In this document: positions 19,241 through 64,000 of the stretch, piece after piece | How positions within the stretch are numbered: the first letter of the stretch is position 1 | How the letters are laid out: the number at the start of each line of letters is the position of its first letter | NCBI GenBank assembly: GCA_937921305.1 | Contig: CAKZSU010000003.1 | Location: 116,599-180,598 of the forward strand | Direction: 5' to 3' | Source of the DNA: an uncultured Patescibacteria group bacterium | GTDB taxonomy: Bacteria; Patescibacteriota; Microgenomatia; UBA10105; UBA927 | Length of the DNA stretch: 64,000 nucleotides | Made by a program: the position numbers and the translations under genes | Notes under the pieces: generated by a model | Databases searched by the model: none | Seen by the model: the letters and a program-made list of their open reading frames with translations, nothing else | Told to the model about the DNA's origin: nothing

Positions 19241-19276
19241 GAAGCAATTGTATCATTGTTTCGATATACTACGCAC

Positions 19277-28470: not shown

Positions 28471-28723
28471 ATATACTCATGAAATACTGAACGCGACTAG
28501 ATGTCAATGTACGATCAATCCTCGCATCATAATCATATTGTTATCTCAAGCTCTTGAACATGTCATCTGTCATCATTTTTCCCATCCTAAATTTTCCTTC
28601 GTGCTATCCTGAACCTGTTTCAAAATCTAAAGAATAATGAAGAAAATATAGTTTCCGAACATTTGTAAAATACTGAAATAAGTTCAGTATGATAAATACT
28701 GATATAAACAAAGGAGCAATCTG

Positions 28724-30498: not shown

Positions 30499-30529
30499 AT
30501 TATTTTTTTAATTTTACTAATATAATGAA

Positions 30530-50000: not shown

Positions 50001-51182
50001 TTATCCCCCTCGCTGGCGAAGGAACGCTGGAATATCGAATTCGTCTTCTTCTGGCGGAGTATCGTCTGTTGGCGGAAGCTGGATAGTTTGATTCTGTTGA
50101 TGGGAAAATCCAGAAGACGCTCTCCCTTGCAAAGATGGAGATTGATGATACATCGTCGTTGATGGCGCTGAAAACACCGATTGATTGCTATAGACCGTCC
50201 GTTGGGATAAATCTTTCAGCCGTTTTTTTGTCTCGTCAAAACCTGTCGCGACGACGGTGATTTTCACCTGATCAACCATCGAATCCACAATTGTCGCTCC
50301 AAAAATAATATTCGCGTCTGGATCAACGGCCTGAGCAATCGTCTTCGCGGCTTCATCCACTTCTGCCATCGTCAAATCTGGACCGCCGGTAACATTGAAC
50401 AATACACCTTTTGCTCCCTCCACAGATACTTCCAAAAGCGGAGAAGCGATCGCGGTACGCGCCGCGGTCGCGGCTCGATTCTCCCCAACGCCTGTGCCAA
50501 TTCCCATCAATGCCGATCCGGAATTTGTCATAATCGCCCGAACATCAGCAAAATCTACATTGATCAATCCCGGCATCGTAATAAGATCAGAGATACCCTG
50601 CACACCCTGACCTAATACAGAGTCGGCCACACGAAACGCTTCAAGAAGCGTCATCTTCCGATCAACCACATCAAGGAGTCGTTGATTTGGAATAACAATC
50701 AGCGTATCGACTTTATCTTTGAGGTTTGCAATGCCTTCTTCAGCATTAACCATTCGTCTTGCGCCTTCAAATGCGAATGGCTTTGTGACCACAGCAACAG
50801 TCAACGCGCCAAGTTCTTTCGCGATCTCCGCGACCACCGGCGTAGCGCCAGTTCCTGTACCTCCTCCTTCTCCGCAAGTTAAAAAAACCATGTCCGCGTC
50901 TTTGAGGTGATCTTTGATTTTATCGCGAGATTCCTCCGCAGCCTTAAATCCAATTTCCGGATTTCCTCCCGCGCCGAGCCCACGCGTCAACTGCTCACCT
51001 ATTTGAACTTTTGTGGGGGCTTGCGATGTGAGAAGCGCTTGGGCGTCGGTATTCATCGCGATAAAGTCGACGCCAACAATTTGCGTGACACTAATCATGG
51101 AATTAATCGCGTTTGTTCCTCCGCCGCCAATCCCAACAACTTTTATTTTCGCGAATCGGGCAATATCGGGTTTAATTAACAT
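50001..51182 (-). CDS. ftsZ: cell division GTPase FtsZ
   Basis: Tubulin signature [18 protein letters not shown] and a C-terminal disordered tail. Confidence 0.95.
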
Positions 51183-51213
51183 AGATGTCGTAAATGAGGA
51201 GCAGGTGCTATGG

Positions 51214-52539
51214 TTATGGCAAAAATGACTTTAACAGATTCATGATCTTTCCCGCAAGACCCTTATTGGATCCTTTTTGTCCTCCTTTTCCAAACATTGA
51301 AAAGAAAGATCGTGACTCTTCATTTCGTCTTGCCTGCGCGCCGTAAAGAAGCAACCCAACACTCGTCGCATATGCCGGCGTCATGATTTCATCAATAAGT
51401 CCACGAACACGCATTGGAATACCCACACGAACAGGCATCGCAAGATTTCTTTTCACACAATCAAGAATCCCTACAGTTTCTGCCCCGCCACCAGTTAATA
51501 CCACACCAGACGGTGTCAAACCGCCAAACCCGCTTCGCTTGATTTCCAACGCAACCATGGTAAAAATTTCATTTAATCTCGGTTTGATAATCCCCTCAAC
51601 CAATGTTTTTCTCGATAATTTCTTAATATCTTCCGCAAGATTAAGGTTTGACACATCAAATTCGTCATTGCTCTGCTGCTTCTTCTCATCTTTTCCCGAG
51701 GATGATTGATCTTGCCGATATGGAATCGGAGGAAGCGCTGGCGTTTTTGGCAGTTGACCAAGCTTGAGCTTAATTTTTTCCGCACTTTCCAAAGAGATCC
51801 GAAGCCCAGCGGCAAGATCTTTTGAAATATGAACAGCTCCAATTGGAATCACCGAAGAATACGACAACGCGCCTTCCACAAAAATCGCTACATCTGTGGT
51901 CTCCCCGCCAACATCCACGACAATCGCACCGAGATCTTTCTCCGTGTCTGATAACACCGCCGTTGCAGACGCCAACCCGCTAAACACAAGACCCGCAACA
52001 TCCACGCCCATTTCTTGAACACACTTATGCAAGTTCCGTATTGCGGTAACACCTCCCGTAACAAGATGAGCATCAACTTCAAGACGAATTCCTGTCATCC
52101 CCACAGGATCAACAATGTCTTCTTGCTGATCCACCTTATATCCGCGAGGCAATACATGAAGAATTTCTCGAGACGAAGGAATAGAGACCGCTTTTGCCGC
52201 TTCAATCACACGATTGACATCATGTTCAGTAATTTCTTTATCAGGTTCGGATACCGCCACAACGCCATGCGAATTAATCGACGCAATATGATTTCCGCTA
52301 ATAGAGACATACGCTTCTGGCGCAGAAACGCCAGCCATCCGTTCTGCCGCTTCAAGAGATTGCGCGATTGCTGAGGATGCCTCATCGATATTCACCACTT
52401 GCCCTTTGCGAATACCCCTGCTTGTCACCGTGGAAACACCGACAATATTTGCGTATCCATCTTCTGTTAATGAAGCGATAAGCGTGACGATTTTCGATGT
52501 GCCGATATCAATACTTGAAATAATGTTGTCTCTTGCCAT
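51214..52539 (-). CDS. ftsA: cell division protein FtsA (actin-like ATPase)
   Basis: DIGTSKI N-terminus, actin-fold phosphate motifs ([10 protein letters not shown]) and a position upstream of ftsZ. Confidence 0.9.
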
Positions 52540-52560
52540 ATGTTTAGTATAGTTCCCTTT

Positions 52561-53247
52561 TTATGGAATGATAACTGGGTTTACAAACCGCAGATCAATC
52601 ACTTGAGGAACTTGTCCCTTCATTCTAAATCCCTTCAGAAGAGTATGTAAAGTATCAGATGTTTTCTTTCCGTCTCCGTCTGAGCGAACGAATACAGTCG
52701 TATCACGCATGCTAATCTCAAGAAACCCATCACTATTCAACACGATTGCTCGAATATCCTCAATAGACCGAAACGATTGAATAATTGAGATGCTCATATC
52801 AACTCCTTTCCCTGACACGGTTTTTCCCGCTTTCATTTCATCAACCGGTAGGCGAAGCGTCGGAAGAGACACAGACGCAGAACTTTCAAACAACATCCGC
52901 TCCTCATCCACCGCGAGCGTTCTTCCAGCATATTCTAAGAAGGCAATTGGTTCCCGAAGAGTGAATTGAATAATCAATCGATGAGGATACCTTTTTATAA
53001 AACGAACATTTTTTACCCTCGGATATTTTTGAACTATAAATGTTTTCATTTTTTGTTCAGGAAAGAAAAGAAGATTCATCGGTATTTGCGATGGATCAAT
53101 CTCCACAGTAACATGCGATGGTTCAGTGTGAATCTCGCGGATCTGAAAAAGAGACAATACACCAAACACTCCGATAAGGAAAAAGCAAACAAATATTCCA
53201 ATTCGAACAACAGGATACGAAAGCAATCGAATGATCCGCCGTTTCAT
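52561..53247 (-). CDS. ftsQ: cell division protein FtsQ/DivIB (POTRA domain)
   Basis: Single TM followed by a POTRA-like beta-rich domain, between murG and ftsA. The ATG at 53247 abuts the murG stop. Confidence 0.6.
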   Translation of the reverse strand: MKRRIIRLLSYPVVRIGIFVCFFLIGVFGVLSLFQIREIHTEPSHVTVEIDPSQIPMNLLFFPEQKMKTFIVQKYPRVKNVRFIKRYPHRLIIQFTLREPIAFLEYAGRTLAVDEERMLFESSASVSLPTLRLPVDEMKAGKTVSGKGVDMSISIIQSFRSIEDIRAIVLNSDGFLEISMRDTTVFVRSDGDGKKTSDTLHTLLKGFRMKGQVPQVIDLRFVNPVIIP

Positions 53248-54296
53248 AGATAAGAGAGAATCACATCGCATAACCGCTTTGTTCCATCAATAGGCACAGA
53301 CAGGTATTCTCGTTTTGGCAGAGATTCCAACGCATTAATAGATTTAATGAATGTTTTATCAGACGCATCTTTTTGATGTAATAAAACTGTGGGCGCATAG
53401 AAAGCAAGCCATTCAGCATTTACTTTTTGCTCGTGTTGCAACGGCAATGGAATAAGGAGAGACGGCGTTTTGGTCACCGCAAGCTCATACACGCTATTTG
53501 CACCAGCTCGACTCACAACAAACTTTGCGTTATGAAGCAACCACGACGCGTCGGGCGGATCGATGTACGGCGCGATATAGTATCGGTTCTTAAGTTCAAT
53601 CGGGAGCATATCTCGAATCATAGTCGCTTTTTCCCAAGAAACCAACCCGGTCTGATGCGCGATAACATATCGCGTCAACAATACTCGAGCCACTCGAAAG
53701 AACAGATCATTGACAAACACCGCGCCAGTCGTGCCTCCTGTCACATAAAGTATCGGACGAGACGATAAAAAAGGAATTGAAGGTTTATCCGGCGGATGAA
53801 GGATTTCGTATCGAAGCGGAAATCCCGTATAAATATATCGTCCTTTTGCCATGTCTTCATAACTTACACACACCGCGCTCGCGAGATATCGAAGCGCCGC
53901 GTTCCCCATCCCAAAGCTATGCGTCTGCTCATGAATCACCAAAGGAATACCGCGAATAATCGCGGCTATTCCCACAGCGGTTCCCACATACCCGCCAAAC
54001 GACACCACGACGCGAGGACGAAGTGAGGATAAAAATTGAGCAATCGATATGACAGAACGAATAAATGCTATTCCCTCTCGAGGACGGGGAATATCTATTA
54101 TATGCGTATAATTACAAAGAGAACACATAATCTGTTCTTCTATTGAGTTAGAAGTTTGTTCAGCAGAAGCAAACACTCTCCGTCTGCCGATAAACACTAG
54201 CGATATCGTCTTCTCTCGCTGTTTCAAATCTTTCGCAACAGCATAAGCTGGAGAAAGATGACCGCCAGAAATCACAAGAACACGACGCGTATTCAT
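53244..54296 (-). CDS. murG: undecaprenyldiphospho-muramoylpentapeptide beta-N-acetylglucosaminyltransferase
   Basis: GT28 two-domain layout with an N-terminal VLVISGGHLSPAYAVA G-loop, between ftsW and ftsQ. Confidence 0.75.
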   Translation of the reverse strand: MNTRRVLVISGGHLSPAYAVAKDLKQREKTISLVFIGRRRVFASAEQTSNSIEEQIMCSLCNYTHIIDIPRPREGIAFIRSVISIAQFLSSLRPRVVVSFGGYVGTAVGIAAIIRGIPLVIHEQTHSFGMGNAALRYLASAVCVSYEDMAKGRYIYTGFPLRYEILHPPDKPSIPFLSSRPILYVTGGTTGAVFVNDLFFRVARVLLTRYVIAHQTGLVSWEKATMIRDMLPIELKNRYYIAPYIDPPDASWLLHNAKFVVSRAGANSVYELAVTKTPSLLIPLPLQHEQKVNAEWLAFYAPTVLLHQKDASDKTFIKSINALESLPKREYLSVPIDGTKRLCDVILSYL

Positions 54297-55426
54297 TTTG
54301 TATACTTGCTTATATTTAACACGATACCAAACGCGGAAAGCAAAACAACAAGACTAGACCCGCCGTAGGATATAAACGGCAACGGCACACCGGTAAGCGG
54401 AAATAACGCGATAATCGCGCCAATGTTGATCGCCGATTGCAATCCAAACCACGCGATCACGCCAACAATAATCAGTCTTGCAAACAGATCAGGAGATCGT
54501 CGAGCAATACGAAATAATCGCCAAAGAACAAAAAGATACCCAAGAAGAACTATTGACGATCCAATAAGCCCAAATTCCTCCGCGACAATGGCAAATATCG
54601 CGTCAGTATTTGCTTCTGGAAGGTAATCATGTTTTTGCCGAGACTTTCCCGCGCCAACGCCAAACACTCCTCCTGAACCAATGCCAAGAAGTGCTTGACG
54701 AATCTGGTACGACGCGCCGTATGGATCTCGCTCTGGATTAAGGAATGTCGTAATTCGTTGCAACCGATACGGCGCGGCAAGAGCAAGGACAAGCAAAATT
54801 ATCACAATCACAGGAACAAGTCCCAAAAACTGCTTGATCGGCGCTCCGGAGATAAAGTACATAGTTAATGAAATAATCAACAAAATAATACTTGTCCCCA
54901 TGTCAGGTTGGAGCAGGACAAGTCCCACCGTGGCGCCCAAAAAAAATAGAAACGCGGAGAACCGTTCTTGTTCTTTTTTGCATAACCACGCGGCAAGATA
55001 GAGGATGACGGCAAGTTTTGCGAATTCAGACGGTTGAAAACTTGTAAATCCCAAATTGATCCATCGACTCGCTCCCATCACCCGAACCCCAATCACAGGC
55101 AGAAATACCGCGATCAATAAACACAAAGTCACGACAATAAAAGGAACAGACGCGACATACCACGCGGTATAGGTAATGCGAGAAGTAATGAATAACGCAA
55201 CCAATCCAACACAAAACCACATCAGTTGTTCTTTAATAAAGAAAAATGGGGAACCAAAATCGCGTAACGCAATCGCGGTGGATGCGTTATAAACCATAAT
55301 CAGCCCAAACATGCTTAACGCTAACACCAACAGAAACAACACCCCATCACCCCGATGCTCTGAAGCGTTTGTTTTTTTTGTTGCAAGATTGATCCAGCGT
55401 GATACTGTAGCGTGTACGCGTTTCAT
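54293..55426 (-). CDS. ftsW: SEDS family lipid II flippase/polymerase FtsW
   Basis: Ten TM helices and a SEDS C-terminal motif, next to mraY and murG. The ATG at 55426 (MKRVHATVSRW) avoids overlap with mraY. Confidence 0.75.
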   Translation of the reverse strand: MKRVHATVSRWINLATKKTNASEHRGDGVLFLLVLALSMFGLIMVYNASTAIALRDFGSPFFFIKEQLMWFCVGLVALFITSRITYTAWYVASVPFIVVTLCLLIAVFLPVIGVRVMGASRWINLGFTSFQPSEFAKLAVILYLAAWLCKKEQERFSAFLFFLGATVGLVLLQPDMGTSIILLIISLTMYFISGAPIKQFLGLVPVIVIILLVLALAAPYRLQRITTFLNPERDPYGASYQIRQALLGIGSGGVFGVGAGKSRQKHDYLPEANTDAIFAIVAEEFGLIGSSIVLLGYLFVLWRLFRIARRSPDLFARLIIVGVIAWFGLQSAINIGAIIALFPLTGVPLPFISYGGSSLVVLLSAFGIVLNISKYTK

Positions 55427-55436
55427 GAAAGATGTG

Positions 55437-56483
55437 TTACGGGCGCGAAGTCGTGAGCAACGCGGCCCATAACCCAATAACGGCCAACACAATCGCGAGA
55501 ATCCAAAACCGCATTACAATTTTTGTTTCCGGCCATCCTCGATATTGCAACCAAAGATGCAACGGCGCGGCAGGGATTAATTTTCTTTTGAAGATCATTT
55601 TGCTTAACAACTGGATAAGAGAGAAAAACACTTCAACAACAAAAATTCCGCCAATAATCACTAACACAGGCATTTTTCCTAACAAGATGCCCACCACGGC
55701 AAATGTCGCGCCAAAGGACAACGCGCCGGTGTCTCCCAAAAAAATTCTTGCCGGGTGAACATTAAAATAAAGAAACGCGAGGAGCGATCCAATCCATAAC
55801 GCGATAAACACAGACAACGGCGCATCAAGAATAGAACTTGATATCGTCCAAAACGCGCCAAGAGCGATCATTAAGACGCCAGATGCCAATCCATCTAATC
55901 CATCAGTAATATTAAACGCGTTCGCAAACGCGATGATGGTAAACATGGAAAACGGGAAAAATAACCACCCAAGATCAAGAACGCCGATAAACGGAATATG
56001 CAAAATTGTTATGCCAAGATCAAACACAAGCCAATAACTGACGATCGCGGCAAGAACCAACTCAAGAAATAATTTGTGCCTGAGACGCAATCCAAAAAAT
56101 CGCTCTCGTTTCCACGCAAATGTTTTTTTCGCATCATCAATTAATCCCAAAATGCCAAACGATATGAATGTGAAAAGAATAATCTTTACCTCTGTCACCA
56201 GAGAATACACCGATGTCACAGGAAGCCAAAAATATTCCATAAGGAAAAGAAGAATTGGAAGCATGACTGAAACAAACACGATAATCAAGAGCCCGCCGCC
56301 AACAGGTGTTCCCGCTTTGTGCGAATGAAAGGAATCAAAGATAGGTGTTCGCTTTTCAAAGATATCAAGAGTTTTTTGTCGCTGCCTCTGAAACTTCCAT
56401 TGATAAAGCAACTTAATAAATGGAATATAAAGAGCGCTCGTGATAATGTATGAAAACAGCAAAACGCCGAGAAGAAATACCAT
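55437..56483 (-). CDS. mraY: phospho-N-acetylmuramoyl-pentapeptide transferase
   Basis: NAFNITDGLDGLASG and a C-terminal HH motif region with a multi-TM layout. Confidence 0.9.
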   Translation of the reverse strand: MVFLLGVLLFSYIITSALYIPFIKLLYQWKFQRQRQKTLDIFEKRTPIFDSFHSHKAGTPVGGGLLIIVFVSVMLPILLFLMEYFWLPVTSVYSLVTEVKIILFTFISFGILGLIDDAKKTFAWKRERFFGLRLRHKLFLELVLAAIVSYWLVFDLGITILHIPFIGVLDLGWLFFPFSMFTIIAFANAFNITDGLDGLASGVLMIALGAFWTISSSILDAPLSVFIALWIGSLLAFLYFNVHPARIFLGDTGALSFGATFAVVGILLGKMPVLVIIGGIFVVEVFFSLIQLLSKMIFKRKLIPAAPLHLWLQYRGWPETKIVMRFWILAIVLAVIGLWAALLTTSRP

Positions 56484-56489
56484 AGAAAT

Positions 56490-56864
56490 TTAAGAAAATA
56501 TGATCCCCGCGACGCGAGGACCAAAAATAATCATGGCGACAAGAGTGGCGCCAAACGCGATAAAGAGCATCATGCCAGCAGCGACATCTTTTGCAATTTT
56601 CGCTTCTTTTTTCCACTCTTGCGTCACAAGATCCGTAATCGCCTCAAGACTTGTGTTTACCAACTCGCCAGTAATTCCAAGAACAATCGTAAACACAATG
56701 ATCGTCCACTCTACTGGCGTAATTTGGAAGACATACCCGAGGGCAATCGCAAATAAAGAGAGCGCCACATGCACACGAAAATTTGGTTGCGTGGTAAACG
56801 CCCAAAAAAGACCATCAAACGCGTGCTTAAAAGATATCGTGTGTTGGCGAATCAACTTTTTCAT
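56490..56864 (-). CDS. dgkA: DgkA-family lipid kinase (diacylglycerol/undecaprenol kinase)
   Basis: 124 aa, three TM helices and the family's conserved acidic motif (GELVNTSLEA). Confidence 0.7.
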   Translation of the reverse strand: MKKLIRQHTISFKHAFDGLFWAFTTQPNFRVHVALSLFAIALGYVFQITPVEWTIIVFTIVLGITGELVNTSLEAITDLVTQEWKKEAKIAKDVAAGMMLFIAFGATLVAMIIFGPRVAGIIFS

Positions 56865-56881
56865 ATCATGAGTATAGCATG

Positions 56882-57871
56882 TTAATATCCCTTCTTTATC
56901 CTTCGGATGGCTTCAATGCATCGAGGGATACAATAAAAAGGAGATACCGGATAATCCTGTGCGTGAAGATATCGACTCTCCTCTCCTCCGAACCCTTGCT
57001 TAAATAGCGTAATTCCTTTCCATGGATGAGAGACAGATTCGCTTGGCGCGACACCCCAGAAATTATAGAGTTTCATACCTCGACGCTTCGATTCCTGAAT
57101 CGCGATCCACTGAATAAGATGCGCGCCAGACGGCGACCCTCGCAACGAGGCGCCGTAATGATAGATTGCCTGTCCGCCAAAAAATAATATGATCGCCGAA
57201 GCGATAACTCGTCCTTCGTATTCCGCGTAATACAAAACCGCGTGATCGTTCCGAGAAAATACATCAAATTCTTCTTGAATACCTTTATGCGGAACGAATC
57301 CTTGTCGTTTTGCTGTTTCTTTATAGAGAGCAAAAAACTGCGAAAGATCGTCGGACCTATAGACGCGGACACCCATCCGTTCTGCTTTTTTTATTTCATA
57401 TCTCGTGGTTTTTCTCATCTGCGAAAAGATCGCATCAAGCGGAGAATCCAACGGCAATACCCAGCAGACTTCCGCATCCATCGCATGAATGGCCGCAGGC
57501 TTATATCCTGCCGAAGCAAACGATTGTTGAAAAGATTCAGGAATTAACGGATTGACACGAAAAAATAACACATGCTCCTGTTTTGCGCGGATCTTCATAA
57601 ACTCCGTAAATGAAGAAATTGTCTCTTCCGTATATTCTTTAAGAACAGGTCCATGACGAATATGGAGAAACGATCCGCGTCTCGCAAGAACTTTGACAAC
57701 CTGAAATATACCAACACACTCTTTTCTTTTCCACATGCCATATCGCTGTACAGAATCTCCTGTCTTTTCCAAAACCTCTCCCCACTCCCACGACTGAAAT
57801 AATGCGTGAGAAGCAAAACGAAACAACACATCGTCCCACTGTTTGTTATGAGTAATTAGTTCAATGTTCAT
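56882..57871 (-). CDS. FemAB-family aminoacyl-tRNA-dependent peptidoglycan interpeptide-bridge transferase
   Basis: ~330 aa with a double GNAT-like fold and FemAB/FemX-like segments (ALFQSWEWGEVLE..., GQAIYHYGASL...). Confidence 0.7.
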   Translation of the reverse strand: MNIELITHNKQWDDVLFRFASHALFQSWEWGEVLEKTGDSVQRYGMWKRKECVGIFQVVKVLARRGSFLHIRHGPVLKEYTEETISSFTEFMKIRAKQEHVLFFRVNPLIPESFQQSFASAGYKPAAIHAMDAEVCWVLPLDSPLDAIFSQMRKTTRYEIKKAERMGVRVYRSDDLSQFFALYKETAKRQGFVPHKGIQEEFDVFSRNDHAVLYYAEYEGRVIASAIILFFGGQAIYHYGASLRGSPSGAHLIQWIAIQESKRRGMKLYNFWGVAPSESVSHPWKGITLFKQGFGGEESRYLHAQDYPVSPFYCIPRCIEAIRRIKKGY

Positions 57872-58205
57872 GCGTCAATCCGCGAAGAATAATCGAAAAT
57901 ATCGTCATTAGAATTGATCCGGCAAGCGCTGTCCCGATTCCATCCACAGAAAATCCCGGGGTAATCGCACTTGCAAGCAGCAAGATCAGCGCATTGATCA
58001 CAAAAAGAAACACTCCCAATGTGATCATTGTCACTGGAAGGGTGAAAAGAACAAGAATCGGCTTTACCAATACATTAAGGAATCCAATGACGCCGCTTGC
58101 AAGCACTGCTTGCAAAAAACTATCAACATGAATCTGTGGCAGAAGCATCGCGACAAGATACAATGAAAGCGAATGAATCCCCCATGTCAAAACAAGCGAT
58201 TTCAT
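57861..58205 (-). CDS. DUF360 / phage-holin-4-2 family small membrane protein
   Basis: 114 aa, four TM helices and an LP...TLG.FLFVINALIL pattern. Confidence 0.5.
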   Translation of the reverse strand: MKSLVLTWGIHSLSLYLVAMLLPQIHVDSFLQAVLASGVIGFLNVLVKPILVLFTLPVTMITLGVFLFVINALILLLASAITPGFSVDGIGTALAGSILMTIFSIILRGLTHEH

Positions 58206-59398
58206 ACGATTGATTCTATCACGCGCATAACTTTCTTTGCTTCCGATTGCGTAACGCGCATTGGAAGATTCACAATTTTTTTACAGTATGCTTCTGCATT
58301 CGGGCAAGATCCAAGAACATACCCAGCAGCGGAAAGATCAACGCCTTTTGGATCTATTGGCGTTACATACCATCGGCCAAGCAAGACGCCGCGAGCTTTC
58401 GCTTTTCGGATAAGGTCATCCGGATTATCAACAAATATCGGATACCGAAGATATATCGCATCGCTGTAATCTGATCTTTTTCTATATATATTTGCGGCCA
58501 TTCTTCGCATGGCTTGAAATCGCGGAAGTTTTTTGATCTGATGAAGGGCGAGCGCTGTCAACGCGTGTGGATACTTCTGAGGAAATATACCCGGATTGCC
58601 ACCTTCCTTTTCCTCGCGATACACAGGAAATGAAAGCCACCCAAGTTTTTGAAACGCCACAAGTAGAACCTTTCCTATCCCTATCGTGTACCATGGCAAA
58701 ATCAACGCAAAGGCGATTGGATGAAAAAGTTGTTGCGCAATCCATCTATATGATGGATATGCCAATGTTTTGTATTGCTTTTCTAATCGTTGAAACGCTT
58801 CGGAATCTCGAATAATCGCCGCTCCGCCAAACACGCTAGAAATCACTTTGTCTCTTCCAAAGCTAAAAAATGCTGCGTCTCCCCACGATCCAAGCATTTT
58901 CCCTCTGTACGATACGCCAAGCGCGTGAGCGCAATCTTCGATCACGAGAATGCTATGCTTTCTTGCAAATGCCACTATTTCGTCTATCTTTGCCGGAACT
59001 CCGAATGTGTGCTGAACGATAATCGCTTTTGTTTTCTCGGAGATCTTCTTTCTAATTGTTTCAACCGTCAAATTTAGCGTGTCATCAATATCGGCGTACA
59101 CCGGTGTCGCGCCTGTCCACAAAACGCTATTCGGCACCGCGACACAGGTAAACGCTTGAACAATCACTTCATCGCCCTTCTTAACACCAAACGCCCGCAA
59201 TATTTCATACTCCGCAGATCTGCCACTGTTATAAAACAGTATATGATCTGTGCTATATTGACGAGTAAACCATGTTTTTAGCGTTTGCTCCGCGTCTCCT
59301 GTCCTCCACCGCCATGGCGTCAACATCATGCGGATCGCTAAGACAATATCGTCAATTTCTGTGTTTGGAGAAAGAGATGGAGAGATTGGATGAAACAT
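58202..59398 (-). CDS. DegT/DnrJ/EryC1/StrS family PLP-dependent nucleotide-sugar aminotransferase
   Basis: The N-terminus ISPSLSPNTEIDDIVLAI aligns with the family's IPLSRP...E..AV start. The lysine-region motif FSFGRDKVISS is present. Confidence 0.8.
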   Translation of the reverse strand: MFHPISPSLSPNTEIDDIVLAIRMMLTPWRWRTGDAEQTLKTWFTRQYSTDHILFYNSGRSAEYEILRAFGVKKGDEVIVQAFTCVAVPNSVLWTGATPVYADIDDTLNLTVETIRKKISEKTKAIIVQHTFGVPAKIDEIVAFARKHSILVIEDCAHALGVSYRGKMLGSWGDAAFFSFGRDKVISSVFGGAAIIRDSEAFQRLEKQYKTLAYPSYRWIAQQLFHPIAFALILPWYTIGIGKVLLVAFQKLGWLSFPVYREEKEGGNPGIFPQKYPHALTALALHQIKKLPRFQAMRRMAANIYRKRSDYSDAIYLRYPIFVDNPDDLIRKAKARGVLLGRWYVTPIDPKGVDLSAAGYVLGSCPNAEAYCKKIVNLPMRVTQSEAKKVMRVIESIV

Positions 59399-60116
59399 AT
59401 TTTTTTATAAATCGCTCTATGACATCGACAAATTCTTTTGGTTTCTTATATGGAACATTGTGACCAACATCTTCGATCATTTCAAACATGCTTCCTGGAA
59501 TCGTCTGCTTCATTTTTACGCCAATGCGAACAGGAACAATGCTATCTTTCTCGCCCCAAATTAACAAACATGGGACATGAAGATGTTTCATGTCGTCAAC
59601 AAGAGGTTCGCTTACCACCTGCTTAAATGTTTCTCTCATTGTTCCTTCAGCACGATAATATTCTCGAGCTCCGACGAGATAATAATACCACTTTCGAATC
59701 ATTTCGGTTAAAAAAGATAATGTGGGTAATGAAAGAACTCGTTTTCCAATTTTTGCAAGCACAATAAAGAACAATAATTTTGTTCGAGAAACTGGCGTAT
59801 ATCCAGGCGTTCCAGACAATACAAGTACTCGAATATTTTTTTTATACAATGTTGCATATCGAAGACCGACTCGTCCACCAAATGAATGACCAATCAATAT
59901 TGGATCATTAATGTGTTCTTTTTCTAGCACCATTCTGACATATTTCGCGTAATCATTAAGTGTGTAGGGCCGTTCAGGGCTTTTGCATTCGCCAAACCCC
60001 GGAAGGTCGAGTGAAACCGCCCGATAGCCTCGCCGCTCTAATTCTTCTTGCAAGGGTATAAATATCTTTTTCGACAGTCCCCATCCATGCAAGATCACAA
60101 ACACAGGATTTTTCAT
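59352..60116 (-). CDS. alpha/beta hydrolase fold protein
   Basis: Nucleophile elbow LIGHSFGGRVG and an HGWG oxyanion region. Confidence 0.75.
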   Translation of the reverse strand: MKNPVFVILHGWGLSKKIFIPLQEELERRGYRAVSLDLPGFGECKSPERPYTLNDYAKYVRMVLEKEHINDPILIGHSFGGRVGLRYATLYKKNIRVLVLSGTPGYTPVSRTKLLFFIVLAKIGKRVLSLPTLSFLTEMIRKWYYYLVGAREYYRAEGTMRETFKQVVSEPLVDDMKHLHVPCLLIWGEKDSIVPVRIGVKMKQTIPGSMFEMIEDVGHNVPYKKPKEFVDVIERFIKKYVSSNLSISFSKHRN

Positions 60117-61417
60117 AACCGTTTTTTAAATTTTTCTCTCCCTTCACTAGCTCGTTTTTGATTTGAAATGATTGCAATCTCTTTCTTTTCAAATACGAAC
60201 GAATCATCCGGTATATCCGCTTGAATCATTATCCCGGCTCCCACAAACGATCCTTTCCCTATTTTCACCCCGGGCATAATCGAAGTATTGACACCAATGC
60301 GAACATCTTTTCCAATGATCGATCCCAGTTTTACTCGCTGTGTCGATATTATCTTCCCTTTAACCGTGGAAAAAATTTCTCCTTCATCAAGACGGAGATT
60401 CGCCAAGACTGTGCCTGATCCCATACTCACATTTCGTTCAATCACACTATCACCGATGTAATTACTATGAAACCAACAAGAATCGCCTATATACGATCGC
60501 GTAATATCTGTGTTAAATCCGGTTACACAATTCATGCCAATCATACTCTGTCGAATAACATTGTTGTTCCCAATGATCGTATTATCTCCGACATATGCAG
60601 GTCCAGTAATTTTCGTATGCTCAAAAATCTTAACATTGTTTCCAATATACACCGGCCCTTCAATAACGACATTCGATCGAATATCACATCCCTCTCCTGT
60701 GGAAAGCGTTATTTCGCGCAAAAGCGCTTCCACAACATCCAACACATGCCATGGATATTTCAACGACGCAAACGGTCCATCATACGGAACCATCACGCAT
60801 CGCTCCTCGTTCATAAGCATGGATAATGCTTCTTCATACCTCGCGTCCAAATCTCCTTGCGCTCGCTTGAGCATAGCAAAAAATTTGGCAATGTCAGAAA
60901 AATAATGTCCTGAAATTGTCACAAATGGACTTGGGATATTTTCAGGGTATGGTTTTTCGATAATCTCCACAACGCGATCGCCATCCAACCGAAGATATCC
61001 GCCGGGAAAATATCGAGATGGTTTCCATCCGGGGATCGCGCATGCCGCGCCGGACGACTGTCCAACTTCTACCACGCGTTGAGGCAACGATGGATCAAAT
61101 ATATCATCGGCAATCAAGATCAATACTTCATTCGTTTGTATTTCATGCTTCGCCATCAATACAGCGTCTGCCATACCTTTTGCTTCTTGTTGCAGAACAA
61201 TCTTTGTTGGAAAAGAAACATTGATAGCGCGCAACTCCTCATAGTTATCAGGACTCACAACTATCACGACCTCTTTTGTCTGTTTCGGAAGAACACGAAC
61301 AACAGAATACTCGAATAGCGGTTTGCCTACAAACGGAAAAAGAATCTTATTCGTTGAAAGGGGCCAACATCGAGATCCGGATCCTCCAGCGAGAACCAAC
61401 ACGGTGAGATTGTTCAT
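60113..61417 (-). CDS. bifunctional sugar-1-phosphate nucleotidyltransferase / left-handed beta-helix (GlmU-like)
   Basis: N-terminal LVLAGGSGSRCWPLS NTP-transferase motif and C-terminal hexapeptide repeats (IGDNTIIGNNNVI...). Confidence 0.75.
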   Translation of the reverse strand: MNNLTVLVLAGGSGSRCWPLSTNKILFPFVGKPLFEYSVVRVLPKQTKEVVIVVSPDNYEELRAINVSFPTKIVLQQEAKGMADAVLMAKHEIQTNEVLILIADDIFDPSLPQRVVEVGQSSGAACAIPGWKPSRYFPGGYLRLDGDRVVEIIEKPYPENIPSPFVTISGHYFSDIAKFFAMLKRAQGDLDARYEEALSMLMNEERCVMVPYDGPFASLKYPWHVLDVVEALLREITLSTGEGCDIRSNVVIEGPVYIGNNVKIFEHTKITGPAYVGDNTIIGNNNVIRQSMIGMNCVTGFNTDITRSYIGDSCWFHSNYIGDSVIERNVSMGSGTVLANLRLDEGEIFSTVKGKIISTQRVKLGSIIGKDVRIGVNTSIMPGVKIGKGSFVGAGIMIQADIPDDSFVFEKKEIAIISNQKRASEGREKFKKRL

Positions 61418-62751
61418 ACATCATCCTCCTTTACTCGTTCTATATTCGCGCCAAGCGATCGCAACTTGTCTTCAATCCGTTCGTATCCTCTATCAATATT
61501 TTCTCCTTCATATAAATAACTTTCCCCTTCTGCAGATAACGCGGCAAGAATCAGTGTCGCTCCAGCGCGAATGTCATCCATTTCAACGACAGCGTTATGA
61601 AGACGCGTTGGTCCATGAATTTCAATCGCTTGATAGATTCCCTCGATACGATCTTTCCAACGAAAATTATAGAATGTTTCCGGATCGGATACACGGGGAT
61701 CGTAAAATCGAATATCCGCGCCCATCTTCAATAAATGCTTTACGTACGAAAACCTATTCTCAAACACCGCTTCATGCAAACGAGATACGCCATCAGCCTG
61801 CGTCATAAATACCGCCCATGGTCCCTGCCAATCTGTCATAAATCCGGGATGCGGTCTTGTTTCAATATCCACGGGAAAAATCCGTTCTTTTACTCGATAT
61901 CGCGTCGTGTATTCATCGATTGCATCAACAATGCCTCCCGCTTTTTCAAACGCATCGAGAAACGCGGATAAGTGCGGTCTCTGAGAATCGTGAACAACAA
62001 TATCTCCTTGCGTCATGCCCGCGGCTATTGCAAAAGTAACTTCTTCGTTTCTGTCTCCCATGATAGTGTATTCCGCTCCGTGCAACGAATCGACGCCATC
62101 AATCACAATACTACCCGATGCTGTTCGCTCAATGCGCGCGCCCATTTGACAAAGTAACGCGATAAGATCATCAATCTCCACCTCTTTCGCAGCGTTTTCA
62201 ATAACCGTTGTTCCTTTCGCAAGAACCGCCGCCAGAATTATGGCTTCTGTTCCTGTATGCGTATTCTTTTCAAACCGAATTGTCGTTCCGCGAAGACTAT
62301 TTGAATGAGCGTGAAAGTACCCATCTGAAGAATCGTACTCAATATCCGCGCCCATTGCCCGCAGCGCGTCGATATGACGATCGATTGGTCTTGCGCCAAT
62401 CCTGCACCCACCAGGATTTGGAATGGTTGCCTTATATCTTCTCGCAAGTAACGGACCTAATACAAGGGATGATGTTCTCAATCTCGAGCCGACTTCAAGA
62501 GGAACAAGCGTCTCTCCATTTCCTCTGTATAAAAGCGTAACCGTGTTTTCTTCCATAGTCACAGACACGCCAAGCTCGCTCATAACTTCCGCCATCATCG
62601 TTATGTCCCGAATATGAGGGACATTATGAAGAATGATCTTTTCCTCCGTGAGGAGCGCGGCAACGAACATTTTGAGCGCAACATTCTTCGCTCCTTGCAA
62701 TCGAATATCTCCTTTGAGAGAAACACCGCCGTTAATGATAAATTTTTCCAT
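61414..62751 (-). CDS. murA: UDP-N-acetylglucosamine 1-carboxyvinyltransferase
   Basis: MEKFIINGG...LQGAKNVALK and an active-site Cys loop NPGGCRIGARPIDRH. Confidence 0.9.
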   Translation of the reverse strand: MEKFIINGGVSLKGDIRLQGAKNVALKMFVAALLTEEKIILHNVPHIRDITMMAEVMSELGVSVTMEENTVTLLYRGNGETLVPLEVGSRLRTSSLVLGPLLARRYKATIPNPGGCRIGARPIDRHIDALRAMGADIEYDSSDGYFHAHSNSLRGTTIRFEKNTHTGTEAIILAAVLAKGTTVIENAAKEVEIDDLIALLCQMGARIERTASGSIVIDGVDSLHGAEYTIMGDRNEEVTFAIAAGMTQGDIVVHDSQRPHLSAFLDAFEKAGGIVDAIDEYTTRYRVKERIFPVDIETRPHPGFMTDWQGPWAVFMTQADGVSRLHEAVFENRFSYVKHLLKMGADIRFYDPRVSDPETFYNFRWKDRIEGIYQAIEIHGPTRLHNAVVEMDDIRAGATLILAALSAEGESYLYEGENIDRGYERIEDKLRSLGANIERVKEDDV

Positions 62752-62752
62752 A

Positions 62753-63730
62753 TTAAAATTCTCCGATTTTTACAATTTCTTCTTCTAATTCTACGCCAAA
62801 TTTCTTTTTGACCTCAGCTTGTATGTGCGCGATAAGATCCAAAACTTCTTTTGCTGTCACGCCGCCAAGATTCACAATAAAATTCGCGTGCACTGGAGAA
62901 ACCTGTGCTCTTCCAATCGTATACCCTTTTAATCCAGCGTGATCGATAAGATATCCCGCCGATGTGGTATAAAGCGGCGTTGGGATCATCATCGCCTTCG
63001 CTTTGCTAATATTTTGAAATGTGCATCCAAGGGATAACACCCCTTGCGGTTGGGTTCTCCGTCTATATGCCATGCTTCGATTTGCGATATTCCATAAAAC
63101 CTCTCGCGTCGATCGCTTCAAAACAAATGTAGCTGATAGGACAACATCTTTTGTTTTTTGGATAATACTTGAGCCATAGGAAAATTGAAAATACGAACGA
63201 GGAACGACCATACCCTCTCCTTGTGGCGTAATAATTTCCGCGCTGTACACCACATCCCCAACATATCCTTCCGGATTTGTCCATTTTGAATTCATATACA
63301 TTGCTCCTCCCACAGTCCCCGGAAGTCCAAGATGCATCTCCACTCCTTGATACCCTTCTTCTATGCAATATCGAACAAATGCGTTAAAAATAACGCCAGA
63401 GTCAGCTTTTACATAAACATCTTCAGCATATTGACCTGATTTATATTTCCCCTTCATACCTTTCACGGCAATCTCTCGCGTCATATTCCGAATCACCAAT
63501 CCTCGCACGCCTTTATCGCCAATAAGGGCGTTTGATCCTCCCCCAAGAATCGTGTATGGCACGCCATAGCGTATTGCTTCAAGAATCGCTCGTTTGAGTG
63601 TGTCTCGCGTTTTTGCCTCGATAAACAAATCCGCCGGACCGCCAATTTTCATTGTTGTGTATGGAGCCAACACAACATTTGATCGGCACTCTGGACCTAA
63701 CGCGTGTTGCAATGCGAAAAGACTATCCAT
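62753..63730 (-). CDS. murB: UDP-N-acetylenolpyruvoylglucosamine reductase
   Basis: FAD-binding domain (ILGGGSNAL) and a MurB C-terminal domain. Confidence 0.85.
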   Translation of the reverse strand: MDSLFALQHALGPECRSNVVLAPYTTMKIGGPADLFIEAKTRDTLKRAILEAIRYGVPYTILGGGSNALIGDKGVRGLVIRNMTREIAVKGMKGKYKSGQYAEDVYVKADSGVIFNAFVRYCIEEGYQGVEMHLGLPGTVGGAMYMNSKWTNPEGYVGDVVYSAEIITPQGEGMVVPRSYFQFSYGSSIIQKTKDVVLSATFVLKRSTREVLWNIANRSMAYRRRTQPQGVLSLGCTFQNISKAKAMMIPTPLYTTSAGYLIDHAGLKGYTIGRAQVSPVHANFIVNLGGVTAKEVLDLIAHIQAEVKKKFGVELEEEIVKIGEF

Positions 63731-63736
63731 ATGCTG

Positions 63737-64000
63737 TTATTGTTTTTGTATCGCTTCTTTCATATAACGACCAATATCGCCAGCGCCAAGAGAAAGAATA
63801 ATATCATGTTTTGACCACGATTGCTCTAAAAAATCTTTTACTGACGAATAAAAAAATACAAAAGGATGATGCTTTTGCGCTTCTTTAACAACCGTCTCGC
63901 TCTGCATCTTTTGCTTTTTTTCCCGCGCTGACGCGTAAATTGGCAAAATACCAACAGTATCTGCTTCGATGAACGCCATTCCAAATTCTTTCAGCAACGA
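63737..64000 (-). CDS. murC: UDP-N-acetylmuramate--L-alanine ligase, C-terminal fragment (gene continues beyond the window end)
   Basis: Mur ligase C-terminal domain ending ...ILSLGAGDIGRY. The frame is open to the window edge. Confidence 0.6.
   Translation of the reverse strand, partial: SLLKEFGMAFIEADTVGILPIYASAREKKQKMQSETVVKEAQKHHPFVFFYSSVKDFLEQSWSKHDIILSLGAGDIGRYMKEAIQKQ

What the first reader, a model, noticed from the sequence alone, without database searches (positions are those of the whole stretch)
56882..61417. Amino-sugar nucleotide genes and a FemAB transferase embedded inside the dcw cluster
Between murA and mraY sit, on the same strand, a GlmU-like NDP-sugar transferase/LbH protein, an alpha/beta hydrolase, a DegT-family aminotransferase, a DUF360 membrane protein, a FemAB-family transferase and DgkA. 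This arrangement suggests synthesis of a modified amino-sugar precursor and interpeptide-bridge formation coupled to peptidoglycan precursor synthesis. The insertion point is atypical for dcw clusters.
Basis: inference. Interest (0 to 1): 0.5.

Follow-up and report, generated by a model that had tools for sequence, protein, structure and literature searches.

The report
Esterase–PLP enzyme–FemX module in dcw operon
The genes are really there, but they are not one amino-sugar pathway: an ordinary UDP-GlcNAc synthase sits next to an undescribed three-gene unit (esterase, PLP enzyme, tRNA-dependent Fem transferase) that is gained and lost as a block beside murF/mraY in Microgenomates bacteria and probably tailors the cell-wall precursor.

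Summary
Observation confirmed. All six genes lie on the minus strand between murA and mraY, mostly with overlapping stop and start codons. They belong to one long dcw operon of a Microgenomates (Patescibacteria/CPR) bacterium.

The NTP-transferase/LbH protein is an archaeal ST0452-type GlmU. It follows murA in 40 of 80 relatives, often with glmS, with or without the other genes. It therefore supplies ordinary UDP-GlcNAc. DUF360 is sporadic. DgkA is a likely undecaprenol kinase next to MraY.

The new result is a strict unit of alpha/beta hydrolase, DegT-like PLP enzyme and FemX-like transferase.
- Of 52 murA–mraY intervals, 10 hold all three genes, 42 hold none and none is partial. A rough MurA tree needs at least 8 gains or losses.
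- In 45 of 45 DegT-centred loci with mraY downstream, FemAB lies between them. The usual order is ABH–murF–DegT–FemAB–mraY.
- Uninterrupted MurF::DegT and DegT::FemAB fusion genes exist.
- No enzyme that makes a keto-sugar was found beside the unit.

Most likely the trio tailors and branches the MurF product before or at MraY. The chemistry of the PLP enzyme and the esterase is unknown. The module appears undescribed.

The parts
63737..63997 (-). 3' end of murC (cut by the window end)
   Evidence: ORF. In the source contig (L082) a 452-aa Mur_ligase/Mur_ligase_M/Mur_ligase_C gene sits here.
62753..63730 (-). murB (UDP-N-acetylenolpyruvoylglucosamine reductase)
   Evidence: TIGR00179 191 bits (cut-off 144.5); FAD_binding_4 + MurB_C.
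61414..62751 (-). murA (UDP-GlcNAc 1-carboxyvinyltransferase)
   Evidence: TIGR01072 444 bits (cut-off 392.7).
60113..61417 (-). Archaeal-type bifunctional GlmU-like enzyme (sugar-1-P nucleotidylyltransferase + LbH acetyltransferase); probable UDP-GlcNAc supply for MurA
   Evidence: TIGR03992 Arch_glmU, 240 bits over its full length, below the cut-off of 292. Full-length match to S. tokodaii ST0452 structures 2ggo/5z09, E 3e-48. It lies directly after murA in 40 of 80 relatives and is often followed by a HAD gene and glmS.
59352..60116 (-). Alpha/beta-hydrolase (Ser78-Asp191-His219 triad), first member of the trio
   Evidence: Abhydrolase_1 2e-29. The triad and the HGW oxyanion motif are invariant in 41 homologues. 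The AF2 model has pLDDT 84 with a poorly predicted hydrophobic cap at residues 105-160. The nearest folds are generic esterases, perhydrolases and ABHD6. It lies upstream of DegT in 39 of 44 loci.
58202..59398 (-). DegT-like fold-type-I PLP enzyme with remodelled C-terminal half, second member of the trio
   Evidence: PF01041 198 bits. Lys184 (SFGRDK) and Asp155 (EDCAH) are invariant. The AF2 model has pLDDT 93.4. The best folds are ArnB, GDP-perosamine synthase, WbpE and QdtB, with TM 0.72-0.81 and 20-26% identity. An extra helical insert spans about residues 215-265, with maximum KD19 hydropathy 1.82. Fusions to MurF or FemAB exist in other genomes.
57861..58205 (-). DUF360 / PF04020 small membrane protein (variable passenger)
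   Evidence: PF04020 105 bits. It is present in only 5 of 45 DegT-centred loci, and also in L010, which lacks the trio.
56882..57871 (-). FemX-like aminoacyl-tRNA-dependent transferase, third member of the trio
   Evidence: PF02388 107 bits. Profile hits to FmhB 6snr (9e-24), FemA 1lrz and FemX 1ne9 (2e-15). F290-K291 is invariant and aligned to the FKK motif. It lies between DegT and MraY in 45 of 45 loci.
56490..56864 (-). DgkA-family lipid kinase, probable undecaprenol kinase feeding MraY
   Evidence: PF01219 105 bits. It lies directly upstream of mraY in 36 of 45 DegT-centred loci, and in some loci without the trio. B. subtilis DgkA phosphorylates undecaprenol (PMC5723303).
55437..56483 (-). 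mraY
   Evidence: TIGR00445 178 bits (cut-off 192); Glycos_transf_4. The mraY-ftsW-murG-ftsA-ftsZ synteny holds in relatives.
50001..55492 (-). Downstream dcw genes: ftsW (54293-55492), murG (53244-54296), ftsQ-like (52561-53271), ftsA (51214-52539), ftsZ (50001-51182)
   Evidence: ORFs. Conserved order in relatives is shown.

Best explanation
The stretch is the middle of one long dcw operon of a Microgenomates (CPR) bacterium. The operon reads mraZ-rsmH-ftsL?-ftsI-pgeF-murC-murB-murA-[glmU-like]-[ABH-DegT-like-(DUF360)-FemX-like]-[dgkA]-mraY-ftsW-murG-ftsQ-ftsA-ftsZ. Three separate things lie between murA and mraY.

1. **An ST0452-type GlmU.** It makes ordinary UDP-GlcNAc for MurA.
2. **An accessory three-enzyme module** that travels as a block and normally brackets murF. 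I infer the following.
   - The FemX-like enzyme transfers an amino acid from an aminoacyl-tRNA onto an amino group of the MurF product (UDP-MurNAc-pentapeptide or its lipid-linked form) just before or at the MraY step.
   - The DegT-like PLP enzyme is sometimes fused to MurF on one side or to FemX on the other. It binds the same nucleotide-sugar-peptide precursor and installs or remodels the amino group, or the residue, involved in that branch.
   - The Ser-Asp-His hydrolase handles an ester or amide of the same intermediates, for example by editing or deacylation.
   - Hydrophobic helices in the DegT insert and the ABH cap, together with the membrane-anchored MurF of relatives, suggest the module works at the membrane next to MraY.
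3. **A DgkA-type undecaprenol kinase** that supplies C55-P to MraY.

DUF360 is a non-conserved passenger.

**Shown:** gene identities, operon packing, all-or-none co-inheritance, gene order, fusions, intact catalytic residues.
**Inferred:** substrates, order of reactions, membrane association.
For: **Gene identities.**

**Whole cluster.** Seen on the 565-kb source contig.

**Unbiased murA-centred sample (80 species-level loci).**
- 52 loci hold both murA and mraY. Of these, 10 carry ABH, DegT and FemAB, 42 carry none, and none is partial.
- At least 8 state changes are needed on a rough MurA NJ tree.

**DegT-centred metagenome sample (80 loci).**
- FemAB lies within 3.5 kb downstream in 43 of 44 loci.
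- MraY lies downstream in 31 of 33.
- ABH lies upstream in 39 of 44.
- murF is directly upstream in 39 of 44.
- In 45 of 45 loci with mraY downstream, FemAB lies between DegT and mraY.

**Fusions.**
- An exhaustive search with the subfamily-specific C-terminal half found 571 clusters at E<=1e-10.
- Among the top 150 were 3 DegT::FemAB fusions (747-769 aa) and 3 TM-MurF::DegT fusions (876-944 aa).
- These are uninterrupted ORFs. One is identical in two assemblies and is seen on 5 contigs.

**Catalytic residues.** DegT Lys184 and Asp155, FemX F290-K291 and ABH S78/D191/H219 are all invariant.

**GlmU.** Its role is independent of the trio and is linked to glmS.

**Cell-wall context.** MurT/GatD are present in the window, so the wall is of an amidated type.
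Against: - There are no chemical data on any Microgenomates peptidoglycan.
- The carbonyl or amine substrate of the DegT-like enzyme is unknown. No step that would create a keto group is encoded in the module.
- In the window itself, and in L081 and L096, murF is not between ABH and DegT.
- MurE of relatives carries an EDPR/EDYR motif that keeps the Arg typical of DAP-type enzymes, both with and without the trio. Fem branches are classically found on Lys-type walls.
- One DegT-like gene lacks FemAB nearby (L146).
- One DegT::FemAB fusion sits beside nitroreductase-like and ThiF genes rather than mraY (L166).
- The MurA tree is a rough single-protein NJ tree.
Confidence: 0.55

Rival explanations
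1. Amino-sugar reading. The DegT-like enzyme aminates an NDP-keto-sugar. The FemAB-like enzyme then aminoacylates that sugar amine, as Orf11 does on the amino sugar of the streptothricin analogue BD-12. The product would be a modified glycan or wall-polymer precursor built on C55-P.
For: - The fold and N-terminal domain of the DegT-like protein match nucleotide-sugar aminotransferases best.
- FemAB-like enzymes are known to acylate an amino sugar (Orf11; PMC12945691).
- A GlmU-like nucleotidyltransferase lies upstream.
- An SDR epimerase/dehydratase exists 27 kb away in the window, at 29482-30498.
Against: - No dehydratase or dehydrogenase is associated with the trio. Most loci are gene-to-gene contiguous, and the gap and flanking genes scanned encode CvpA-CAP, Bro-N, PD-(D/E)XK, a class IV aminotransferase and an ATP-grasp-like protein.
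- The GlmU-like gene is conserved without the trio.
- The trio brackets murF and is fused to MurF.
- The C-terminal half of the DegT-like protein is remodelled. Family profiles and solved-structure sequence matches align essentially only to residues ~20-206, and there is a 45-aa insert. From my own knowledge, this half shapes the sugar-nucleotide pocket in the family.
Confidence: 0.15
2. Donor-tailoring reading. The PLP enzyme acts on the aminoacyl-tRNA, as SepCysS, SelA and SepSecS do on tRNA-bound residues. It would convert a standard aminoacyl moiety into a non-canonical one, which the fused or adjacent FemX then transfers to the wall precursor. The esterase would deacylate wrong or unused aminoacyl-tRNA.
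For: - DegT::FemAB fusions exist.
- In L167 a SerRS and a class IIb aaRS lie immediately upstream of ABH-murF::DegT-FemAB.
- An esterase fits an aminoacyl-ester substrate.
- The precedent of fold-type-I PLP enzymes working on aa-tRNA is from my own knowledge.
Against: - The protein belongs to the DegT family, not to the SepCysS/SelA lineages.
- No positively charged tRNA-binding extension was looked for or found.
- aaRS neighbours were seen in one locus only.
- The fusions to MurF are not explained by this reading.
Confidence: 0.12
3. Supply reading. The DegT-like enzyme and ABH provide a building block for MurF, for example a D-amino acid or an alternative D-Ala-D-X terminus. FemX is merely co-located.
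For: - ABH and DegT flank murF directly in 39 of 44 loci.
- MurF::DegT fusions exist.
- ddl is not seen in the cluster.
Against: - It does not explain the strict co-occurrence with FemAB or the DegT::FemAB fusions.
- MurI, or a class IV (D-amino-acid type) aminotransferase, is present next to the module in several loci.
- Fold-type-I DegT enzymes are not known to make D-amino acids (own knowledge).
Confidence: 0.08
4. No functional link. The genes are unrelated housekeeping genes that happen to ride in a very long operon.
For: CPR operons are long and mixed. DUF360, the MBL-fold gene and dgkA do vary independently.
Against: - Presence is all-or-none in 52 intervals, with at least 8 changes on the MurA tree.
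- Gene order is fixed in about 45 loci.
- There are six fusion clusters.
Confidence: 0.04

Closest known systems
FemX of Weissella viridescens / FmhB (FemX) of Staphylococcus aureus (FemABX family, PF02388)
   Same: It has the double-GNAT Fem fold signature. It is about 330 aa, with no match to the stretch of FmhB (residues ~235-295) that lies between the two aligned blocks, as in FemX_Wv. The Phe-Lys catalytic motif is conserved. It lies next to murF and mraY, the step at which FemX_Wv acts on UDP-MurNAc-pentapeptide (PMC12945691).
   Different: - Similarity is only distant: NF047883 scores 38 bits against a cut-off of 500.
- Lys36 of FemX_Wv, which from my recollection contacts the UDP-MurNAc-pentapeptide, is not conserved (my reading of the alignment).
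- It is always paired with a PLP enzyme and an esterase, and is sometimes fused to the PLP enzyme.
- Donor and acceptor are unknown.
DhpH of dehydrophos biosynthesis (PLP-dependent N-domain fused to a Fem-like C-domain)
   Same: The architecture is a PLP domain followed by a Fem-like tRNA-dependent transferase, as in the 747-769-aa DegT::FemAB fusions. DhpH-C is Fem-like with a Phe-Lys pair (PMC12945691). In that pathway the PLP chemistry prepares the amine that the Fem-like domain acylates (own knowledge).
   Different: It is a secondary-metabolite enzyme of Streptomyces. Whether its PLP domain is of a different family from DegT was not tested here (own recollection). It has no link to mur genes.
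Nucleotide-sugar aminotransferases of the DegT/DnrJ/EryC1/StrS family (ArnB, GDP-perosamine synthase, PseC, WbpE, QdtB)
   Same: The fold matches (TM 0.72-0.81). The PLP lysine and aspartate are present, and the N-terminal large domain is 35-40% alike locally.
   Different: - All NCBIfam equivalogs score far below their cut-offs and align to residues ~20-206 only.
- There is a 45-residue hydrophobic helical insert, and the C-terminal half is no longer matched by the family profiles.
- No partner enzyme makes a keto-sugar.
- It is embedded in the dcw cluster and fused to MurF or FemX.
ST0452 of Sulfolobus tokodaii (archaeal bifunctional GlcNAc-1-P uridylyltransferase / GlcN-1-P acetyltransferase)
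   Same: It aligns over its full length (E 3e-48) and has the same two-domain architecture.
   Different: It is a bacterial (CPR) host protein. It scores below the TIGR03992 cut-off (240 against 292). Activity is untested.
DgkA of Bacillus subtilis (undecaprenol kinase)
   Same: It belongs to PF01219, is a small membrane kinase, and has a role in the C55-P pool (PMC5723303).
   Different: Here it is placed immediately upstream of mraY in the dcw operon. Its substrate is untested.

Membership tests
FemABX aminoacyl-tRNA-dependent transferases | Pfam FemAB (PF02388) match above the gathering score over both GNAT-like lobes | tested here: met
   107 bits against a cut-off of 24, in two stretches. 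The family profile hits FmhB 6snr at 9e-24, FemA 1lrz and FemX 1ne9.
FemABX aminoacyl-tRNA-dependent transferases | Catalytic Phe-Lys pair (F304-K305 of FemX_Wv; FKK motif of FmhB/FemA) | tested here: met
   F290 and K291 are invariant in 31 homologues and align with FKK of FmhB and FemA. The role of Lys305 is taken from PMC12945691. The alignment to FemX_Wv itself stops at residue 297, so the equivalence is shown only through FmhB and FemA.
FemABX aminoacyl-tRNA-dependent transferases | Uses aminoacyl-tRNA as donor and a peptidoglycan precursor amine as acceptor | not testable with these tools
   Only context is available: the gene lies between murF and mraY in 45 of 45 loci.
DegT/DnrJ/EryC1/StrS sugar aminotransferases | Fold-type-I fold with the Schiff-base lysine and the PLP-binding aspartate | tested here: met
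   PF01041 198 bits. K184 and D155 are invariant. Foldseek gives TM 0.72-0.81 to ArnB, Per and WbpE.
DegT/DnrJ/EryC1/StrS sugar aminotransferases | Full-length match to a characterised equivalog (PseC, ArnB, WecE, Per and others) | tested here: not met
   The best hit is PseC at 133 bits against a cut-off of 423. All hits cover residues ~20-206 only. The C-terminal half carries an insert at ~215-265.
DegT/DnrJ/EryC1/StrS sugar aminotransferases | Genomic partner that makes the NDP-keto-sugar substrate (4,6-dehydratase or 3-/4-dehydrogenase) | tested here: not met
   None was seen beside the module in about 60 well-covered loci. Most of these are gene-to-gene contiguous. The gap and flanking genes scanned encode CvpA-CAP, Bro-N, a PD-(D/E)XK nuclease, Aminotran_4 and an ATP-grasp-like protein. 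Not every unassigned ORF was scanned.
GlmU-type bifunctional UDP-GlcNAc synthase (archaeal ST0452 type) | N-terminal sugar-1-P nucleotidylyltransferase plus C-terminal LbH acetyltransferase, matching over the full length | tested here: inconclusive
   The architecture is present and there is a full-length match to ST0452 (E 3e-48). However, TIGR03992 scores 240 bits, below its cut-off of 292. Neighbourhood with murA and glmS supports the role.
dcw (division and cell wall) cluster | Conserved collinear mraZ...ftsI...mur...mraY-ftsW-murG-ftsQ-ftsA-ftsZ order | tested here: met
   Seen on source contig L082 and in relatives.
DgkA / undecaprenol kinase | PF01219 membrane kinase; lipid substrate undecaprenol rather than diacylglycerol | tested here: inconclusive
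   The family match is met (105 bits). The substrate cannot be told from sequence. Adjacency to mraY is suggestive.

The most novel reading that the evidence does not exclude
The ABH / DegT-like / FemX-like trio is an undescribed peptidoglycan-precursor tailoring pathway of Microgenomates. A PLP enzyme of the sugar-aminotransferase fold is physically coupled to MurF and to a Fem transferase, and is fused to one or the other in some genomes. It creates or remodels the amino group or residue that receives a tRNA-donated amino acid. The result would be a wall chemotype not yet seen in cultured bacteria.
Probability: 0.35. Interest if true: 0.75.

Novelty: new variant of a known kind. Interest (0 to 1): 0.6.

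Why it matters
Nothing is known experimentally about the cell wall of Microgenomates, or of most CPR bacteria. Fem transferases are the only known route to branched stem peptides, and they have always been described as acting alone.

Here a Fem enzyme is obligatorily accompanied by a PLP enzyme and an esterase. The three are wrapped around murF and fused in some genomes. This points to an extra, unrecognised chemical step in precursor synthesis.

It also gives a concrete set of soluble proteins to test, including natural fusions such as NCBI MFC1790689.1. It further corrects the automatic annotations of this protein family, such as 'perosamine synthetase' and 'dTDP-4-amino-4,6-dideoxygalactose transaminase'.

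Tried and rejected
1. **MurE specificity motif.** I asked whether the trio correlates with a Lys-type or DAP-type MurE. All 54 MurE sequences have EDPR, EDYR or EDSR at the DNPR position, with or without the trio. There is no correlation.
2. **Keto-sugar-forming enzyme.** I looked in the gaps and flanks of the module. The gap genes encode a CvpA-CAP membrane protein, a Bro-N protein and a PD-(D/E)XK nuclease. The flanking genes encode a class IV aminotransferase and an ATP-grasp-like protein. None fits.
3. **ABH fold search.** It returned only generic esterases, perhydrolases and ABHD6, with no specific lead.
4. **Gene after DegT in L146.** It is not a diverged FemAB (hhalign probability 0.04).
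5. **murF, glmS, HAD or MBL homologues in the window.** None was found apart from MurT.
6. **Literature.** Searches for DegT+FemAB, CPR dcw clusters and Microgenomates bridges found nothing describing the module. The library is incomplete, so this is not proof of absence.
7. **AFDB fold library.** It was unavailable.
8. **MenH-like idea.** I considered that the ABH might eliminate the enolpyruvyl group of the MurA product to give a 4-keto sugar for DegT. There is no supporting evidence, and the proton involved is not activated, so I dropped it.

Full report
**1. Observation**

The minus strand of 55.4-63.7 kb carries, in order: murB, murA, an NTP-transferase/LbH gene, an alpha/beta hydrolase (ABH), a DegT-family gene, a DUF360 (PF04020) gene, a FemAB gene, dgkA and mraY. 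Every assignment has a strong Pfam or NCBIfam match.

The genes from murA to FemAB overlap by 4-47 nt. FemAB-dgkA and dgkA-mraY are separated by 17 and 6 nt. They therefore read as one transcription and translation unit. A consensus scan adds nothing decisive.

**2. Source and whole cluster**

The DegT, FemAB and ABH proteins are found, identical, on a 565-kb metagenomic contig and on two other assemblies. MurA relatives are Gottesman-, Woese-, Levy- and other Microgenomates (Patescibacteria) MAGs.

On the source contig the operon begins upstream of the window. It reads mraZ-rsmH-(small ORF)-ftsI-PF02578(PgeF-type)-murC-murB-murA-NTP/LbH-ABH-DegT-DUF360-FemAB-dgkA-mraY-ftsW-murG-ftsQ-ftsA-ftsZ. 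murD, murE and murF are not in this copy of the cluster. MurT/GatD lie elsewhere in the window, at 6126-8185.

**3. The stretch is not one unit**

I fetched 80 species-level loci centred on murA, a sample that is unbiased with respect to the insert. I mapped all cluster proteins onto them.

- murA...mraY-ftsW-murG-ftsA-ftsZ is conserved, but the interval between murA and mraY varies from 0.8 to 8 kb.
- The NTP/LbH gene directly follows murA in 40 of 80 loci. It is often followed by a HAD gene and glmS, whether or not the other genes are present.
- Its best family is archaeal GlmU (TIGR03992, full length, 240 bits, cut-off 292). Its closest solved relative is S. tokodaii ST0452 (E 3e-48, full length). 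From my own knowledge, ST0452 is a GlcNAc-1-P uridylyltransferase and GlcN-1-P acetyltransferase.
- It is therefore best read as the ordinary UDP-GlcNAc supply for MurA, not as a step towards a modified sugar.
- dgkA sits directly before mraY in many loci, with or without the trio. B. subtilis DgkA is an undecaprenol kinase (PMC5723303), which fits a role in supplying C55-P to MraY.
- DUF360 occurs in 5 of 45 DegT-centred loci, always after an MBL-fold gene. It also occurs in L010, which lacks ABH, DegT and FemAB. It is a variable passenger.

**4. The trio**

*Co-occurrence in the unbiased sample.* Of the 52 murA-centred loci that contain both murA and mraY, 10 carry ABH, DegT and FemAB in the interval, 42 carry none, and none carries a subset. 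On a rough NJ tree of MurA, the presence or absence of the trio needs at least 8 changes among 53 taxa. The three genes have therefore been gained or lost together repeatedly.

*DegT-centred sample.* A second sample of 80 metagenome loci was centred on the DegT-like gene, at 43-55% identity. The results were as follows.

| Feature | Loci |
|---|---|
| FemAB within 3.5 kb downstream | 43 of 44 |
| mraY downstream | 31 of 33 |
| ABH upstream | 39 of 44 |
| murF immediately upstream | 39 of 44 |

In all 45 loci with mraY downstream, FemAB lies between DegT and mraY.

*Gene order.* The canonical order is ABH-murF-DegT-(MBL)-(DUF360)-FemAB-(dgkA)-mraY. The window, L081 and L096 lack murF at this place. 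murF also sits before mraY in loci without the trio, so the trio is inserted around the classical murF-mraY junction.

*Fusions.* I ran an exhaustive HMMER search of 1.8 billion representatives with the subfamily-specific C-terminal half of the DegT-like protein. It found 571 clusters at E<=1e-10. Six of the best 150 are long proteins.
- Three are DegT::FemAB fusions (747-769 aa).
- Three are membrane-anchored MurF::DegT fusions (876-944 aa).
- Five of the six were traced to contigs and are uninterrupted ORFs under table 11; P0444 and P0446 were not traced to DNA.
- One (P0447) is on five contigs and has identical DNA in two assemblies.
- Another (P0389) is a GenBank protein, MFC1790689.1, lying in murF-[DegT::FemAB]-dgkA-mraY-murD.

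The fusions follow the gene order MurF-DegT-FemX. They argue that the three enzymes share a substrate or form a complex.

**5. The proteins**

*FemX-like (329 aa).*
- PF02388 scores 107 bits.
- The family profile hits FmhB (9e-24), FemA and W. viridescens FemX (2e-15).
- The alignment to FmhB skips its residues ~235-295 (from my own knowledge, the coiled-coil arm of the staphylococcal Fem proteins), so the protein resembles FemX_Wv in size.
- F290-K291 are invariant and align with the FKK motif. Lys305 of FemX_Wv and Phe328-Lys329 of DhpH-C are the functional equivalents (PMC12945691).

*DegT-like (398 aa).*
- PF01041 scores 198 bits. Lys184 (SFGRDK) and Asp155 are invariant.
- The AF2 model has pLDDT 93.4. 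Its fold matches ArnB, perosamine synthase, WbpE and QdtB (TM 0.72-0.81, 20-26% identity).
- Every curated equivalog aligns only to residues ~20-206 and scores far below its cut-off.
- The C-terminal half has two extra helices, at about 217-251, with invariant W219, Q223, H226, K243 and E263. Its hydropathy peak of 1.82 is in the range of membrane helices.

*ABH (254 aa).*
- The Ser78-Asp191-His219 triad and the HGW motif are invariant.
- The core resembles generic esterases. The cap, at residues 105-160, is hydrophobic and poorly predicted.

*MurF of relatives.* Its N-terminal domain (from my own knowledge, the UDP-binding domain) is replaced by a region of about 130-170 aa that reads as polytopic membrane sequence (by eye).

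**6. Mechanism**

Shown:
- a three-enzyme unit with intact active sites;
- strict co-inheritance;
- placement at the MurF-to-MraY step;
- fusions to MurF and FemX.

Inferred:
- the FemX-like enzyme adds a tRNA-borne amino acid to an amine of the MurF product;
- the PLP enzyme binds the same UDP-sugar-peptide, consistent with its family's taste for nucleotide sugars, and makes or remodels the amine or residue concerned;
- the esterase edits or deacylates an intermediate;
- the unit works at the membrane.

I give this 0.55. The specific chemistry of the PLP step is the weakest part, because no source of a carbonyl substrate is encoded.

**7. Rivals**

- *Sugar amination followed by aminoacylation of the sugar amine (0.15).* There is a precedent in Orf11 of the BD-12 pathway. 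The fold of the DegT-like enzyme favours this reading. The absence of any dehydratase or dehydrogenase, and the MurF link, disfavour it.
- *PLP tailoring of the aminoacyl-tRNA donor (0.12).* It is suggested by the DegT::FemAB fusions and by the SerRS and class IIb aaRS genes next to the module in L167.
- *Supply of a D-amino acid or an alternative terminus for MurF (0.08).* It is weakened by MurI or a class IV aminotransferase lying beside the module.
- *Chance association (0.04).*

**8. Comparison with known systems**

The unit works like a Fem-type branching step, and the FemX-like protein passes the sequence tests for the family. Its substrates are untestable here.

The DegT-like protein is a member of the superfamily by fold and cofactor residues. 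It fails two practical tests for a sugar aminotransferase: it has no full-length equivalog match, and it has no partner that makes a keto-sugar. I therefore do not file it as one.

The nearest architectural analogue of the DegT::FemAB fusion is DhpH of dehydrophos biosynthesis. That its N-terminal domain is PLP-dependent is from my own knowledge.

**9. Novelty**

Five full-text searches found no description of a DegT-like or ABH partner of Fem transferases, or of this module in CPR dcw clusters. Public annotations call the protein 'perosamine synthetase' or a dTDP-sugar transaminase.

I rate it a new variant of a known kind: Fem-type precursor branching with two obligatory extra enzymes. Interest is 0.6.

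**10. Dead ends**

- MurE carries EDPR or EDYR at the DNPR position irrespective of the trio.
- The ABH fold search gave no specific lead.
- The gap and flanking genes were uninformative.
- One DegT-like gene stands without FemAB (L146).
- One fusion lies in a non-dcw context (L166).

Noticed in passing
L003:13380-14837, L058:15712-17304 (relatives; not in the window): MurF of many Microgenomates matches the murF profile only from model position ~70 onward. It has a 130-170-aa N-terminal region that reads as polytopic membrane sequence (by eye) in place of the N-terminal domain, which from my own knowledge binds UDP. MurE of L081 (356-1540, 394 aa) also lacks the N-terminal domain. This raises the question of whether these ligases act on lipid-linked rather than UDP-linked substrates.
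   Followed up: partly
window 6126-8185 (-): A MurT (Mur_ligase_M + MurT_C) and GatD (GATase_3) pair is present. It implies amidation of the stem-peptide D-iso-glutamate.
   Followed up: partly
L082:3623-4291 (source contig, just beyond the window's right end): A PF02578 (Cu-oxidase_4; YfiH/PgeF-type peptidoglycan editing factor, own knowledge) gene sits between ftsI and murC. It is conserved there in several relatives.
   Followed up: no
L167:1632-10161: A class IIb aminoacyl-tRNA synthetase and SerRS lie immediately upstream of ftsQ-like-ABH-[murF::DegT fusion]-FemAB. This may hint at the donor amino acid.
   Followed up: no
L166:66-6045: A DegT::FemAB fusion is followed by a nitroreductase-like gene, a 515-aa unknown and a ThiF-like gene instead of mraY. 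This is a different, possibly secondary-metabolite-like, context.
   Followed up: no
L160:3753-9315: Two FemAB genes lie in one module (ABH-FemAB-murF-DegT-FemAB). This suggests a longer branch in that organism.
   Followed up: no
window 17334-31336 (-): A glycan-assembly cluster is present: GT2, GT4, a Wzy_C O-antigen-ligase-like gene, PMT_2, a methyltransferase and an SDR epimerase/dehydratase at 29482-30498. GC drops to 29% at 30-32 kb, against about 42% elsewhere.
   Followed up: partly
window 42829-45915 (-), 20352-23765 (-): Large ORFs of 1028, 514 and 622 aa have no Pfam family.
   Followed up: no
window 56501-56523 (-): A terminator-like hairpin (10-bp stem, 6 G-C pairs, T-rich tail) lies inside the last codons of dgkA, just before mraY. 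It may be an attenuator. It is a consensus match only.
   Followed up: no
window 59352-59398: ABH and DegT overlap by 47 nt here because this ABH is about 14 residues longer at its C-terminus than its ~240-aa homologues. In relatives without murF between them the overlap is 4 nt (L081).
   Followed up: partly
L139:3769-4647 (-), L123:3454-4743 (+): A class IV (D-amino-acid/branched-chain type) aminotransferase lies next to the module in L139. An ATP-grasp-like gene overlaps the start of ABH in L123.
   Followed up: no
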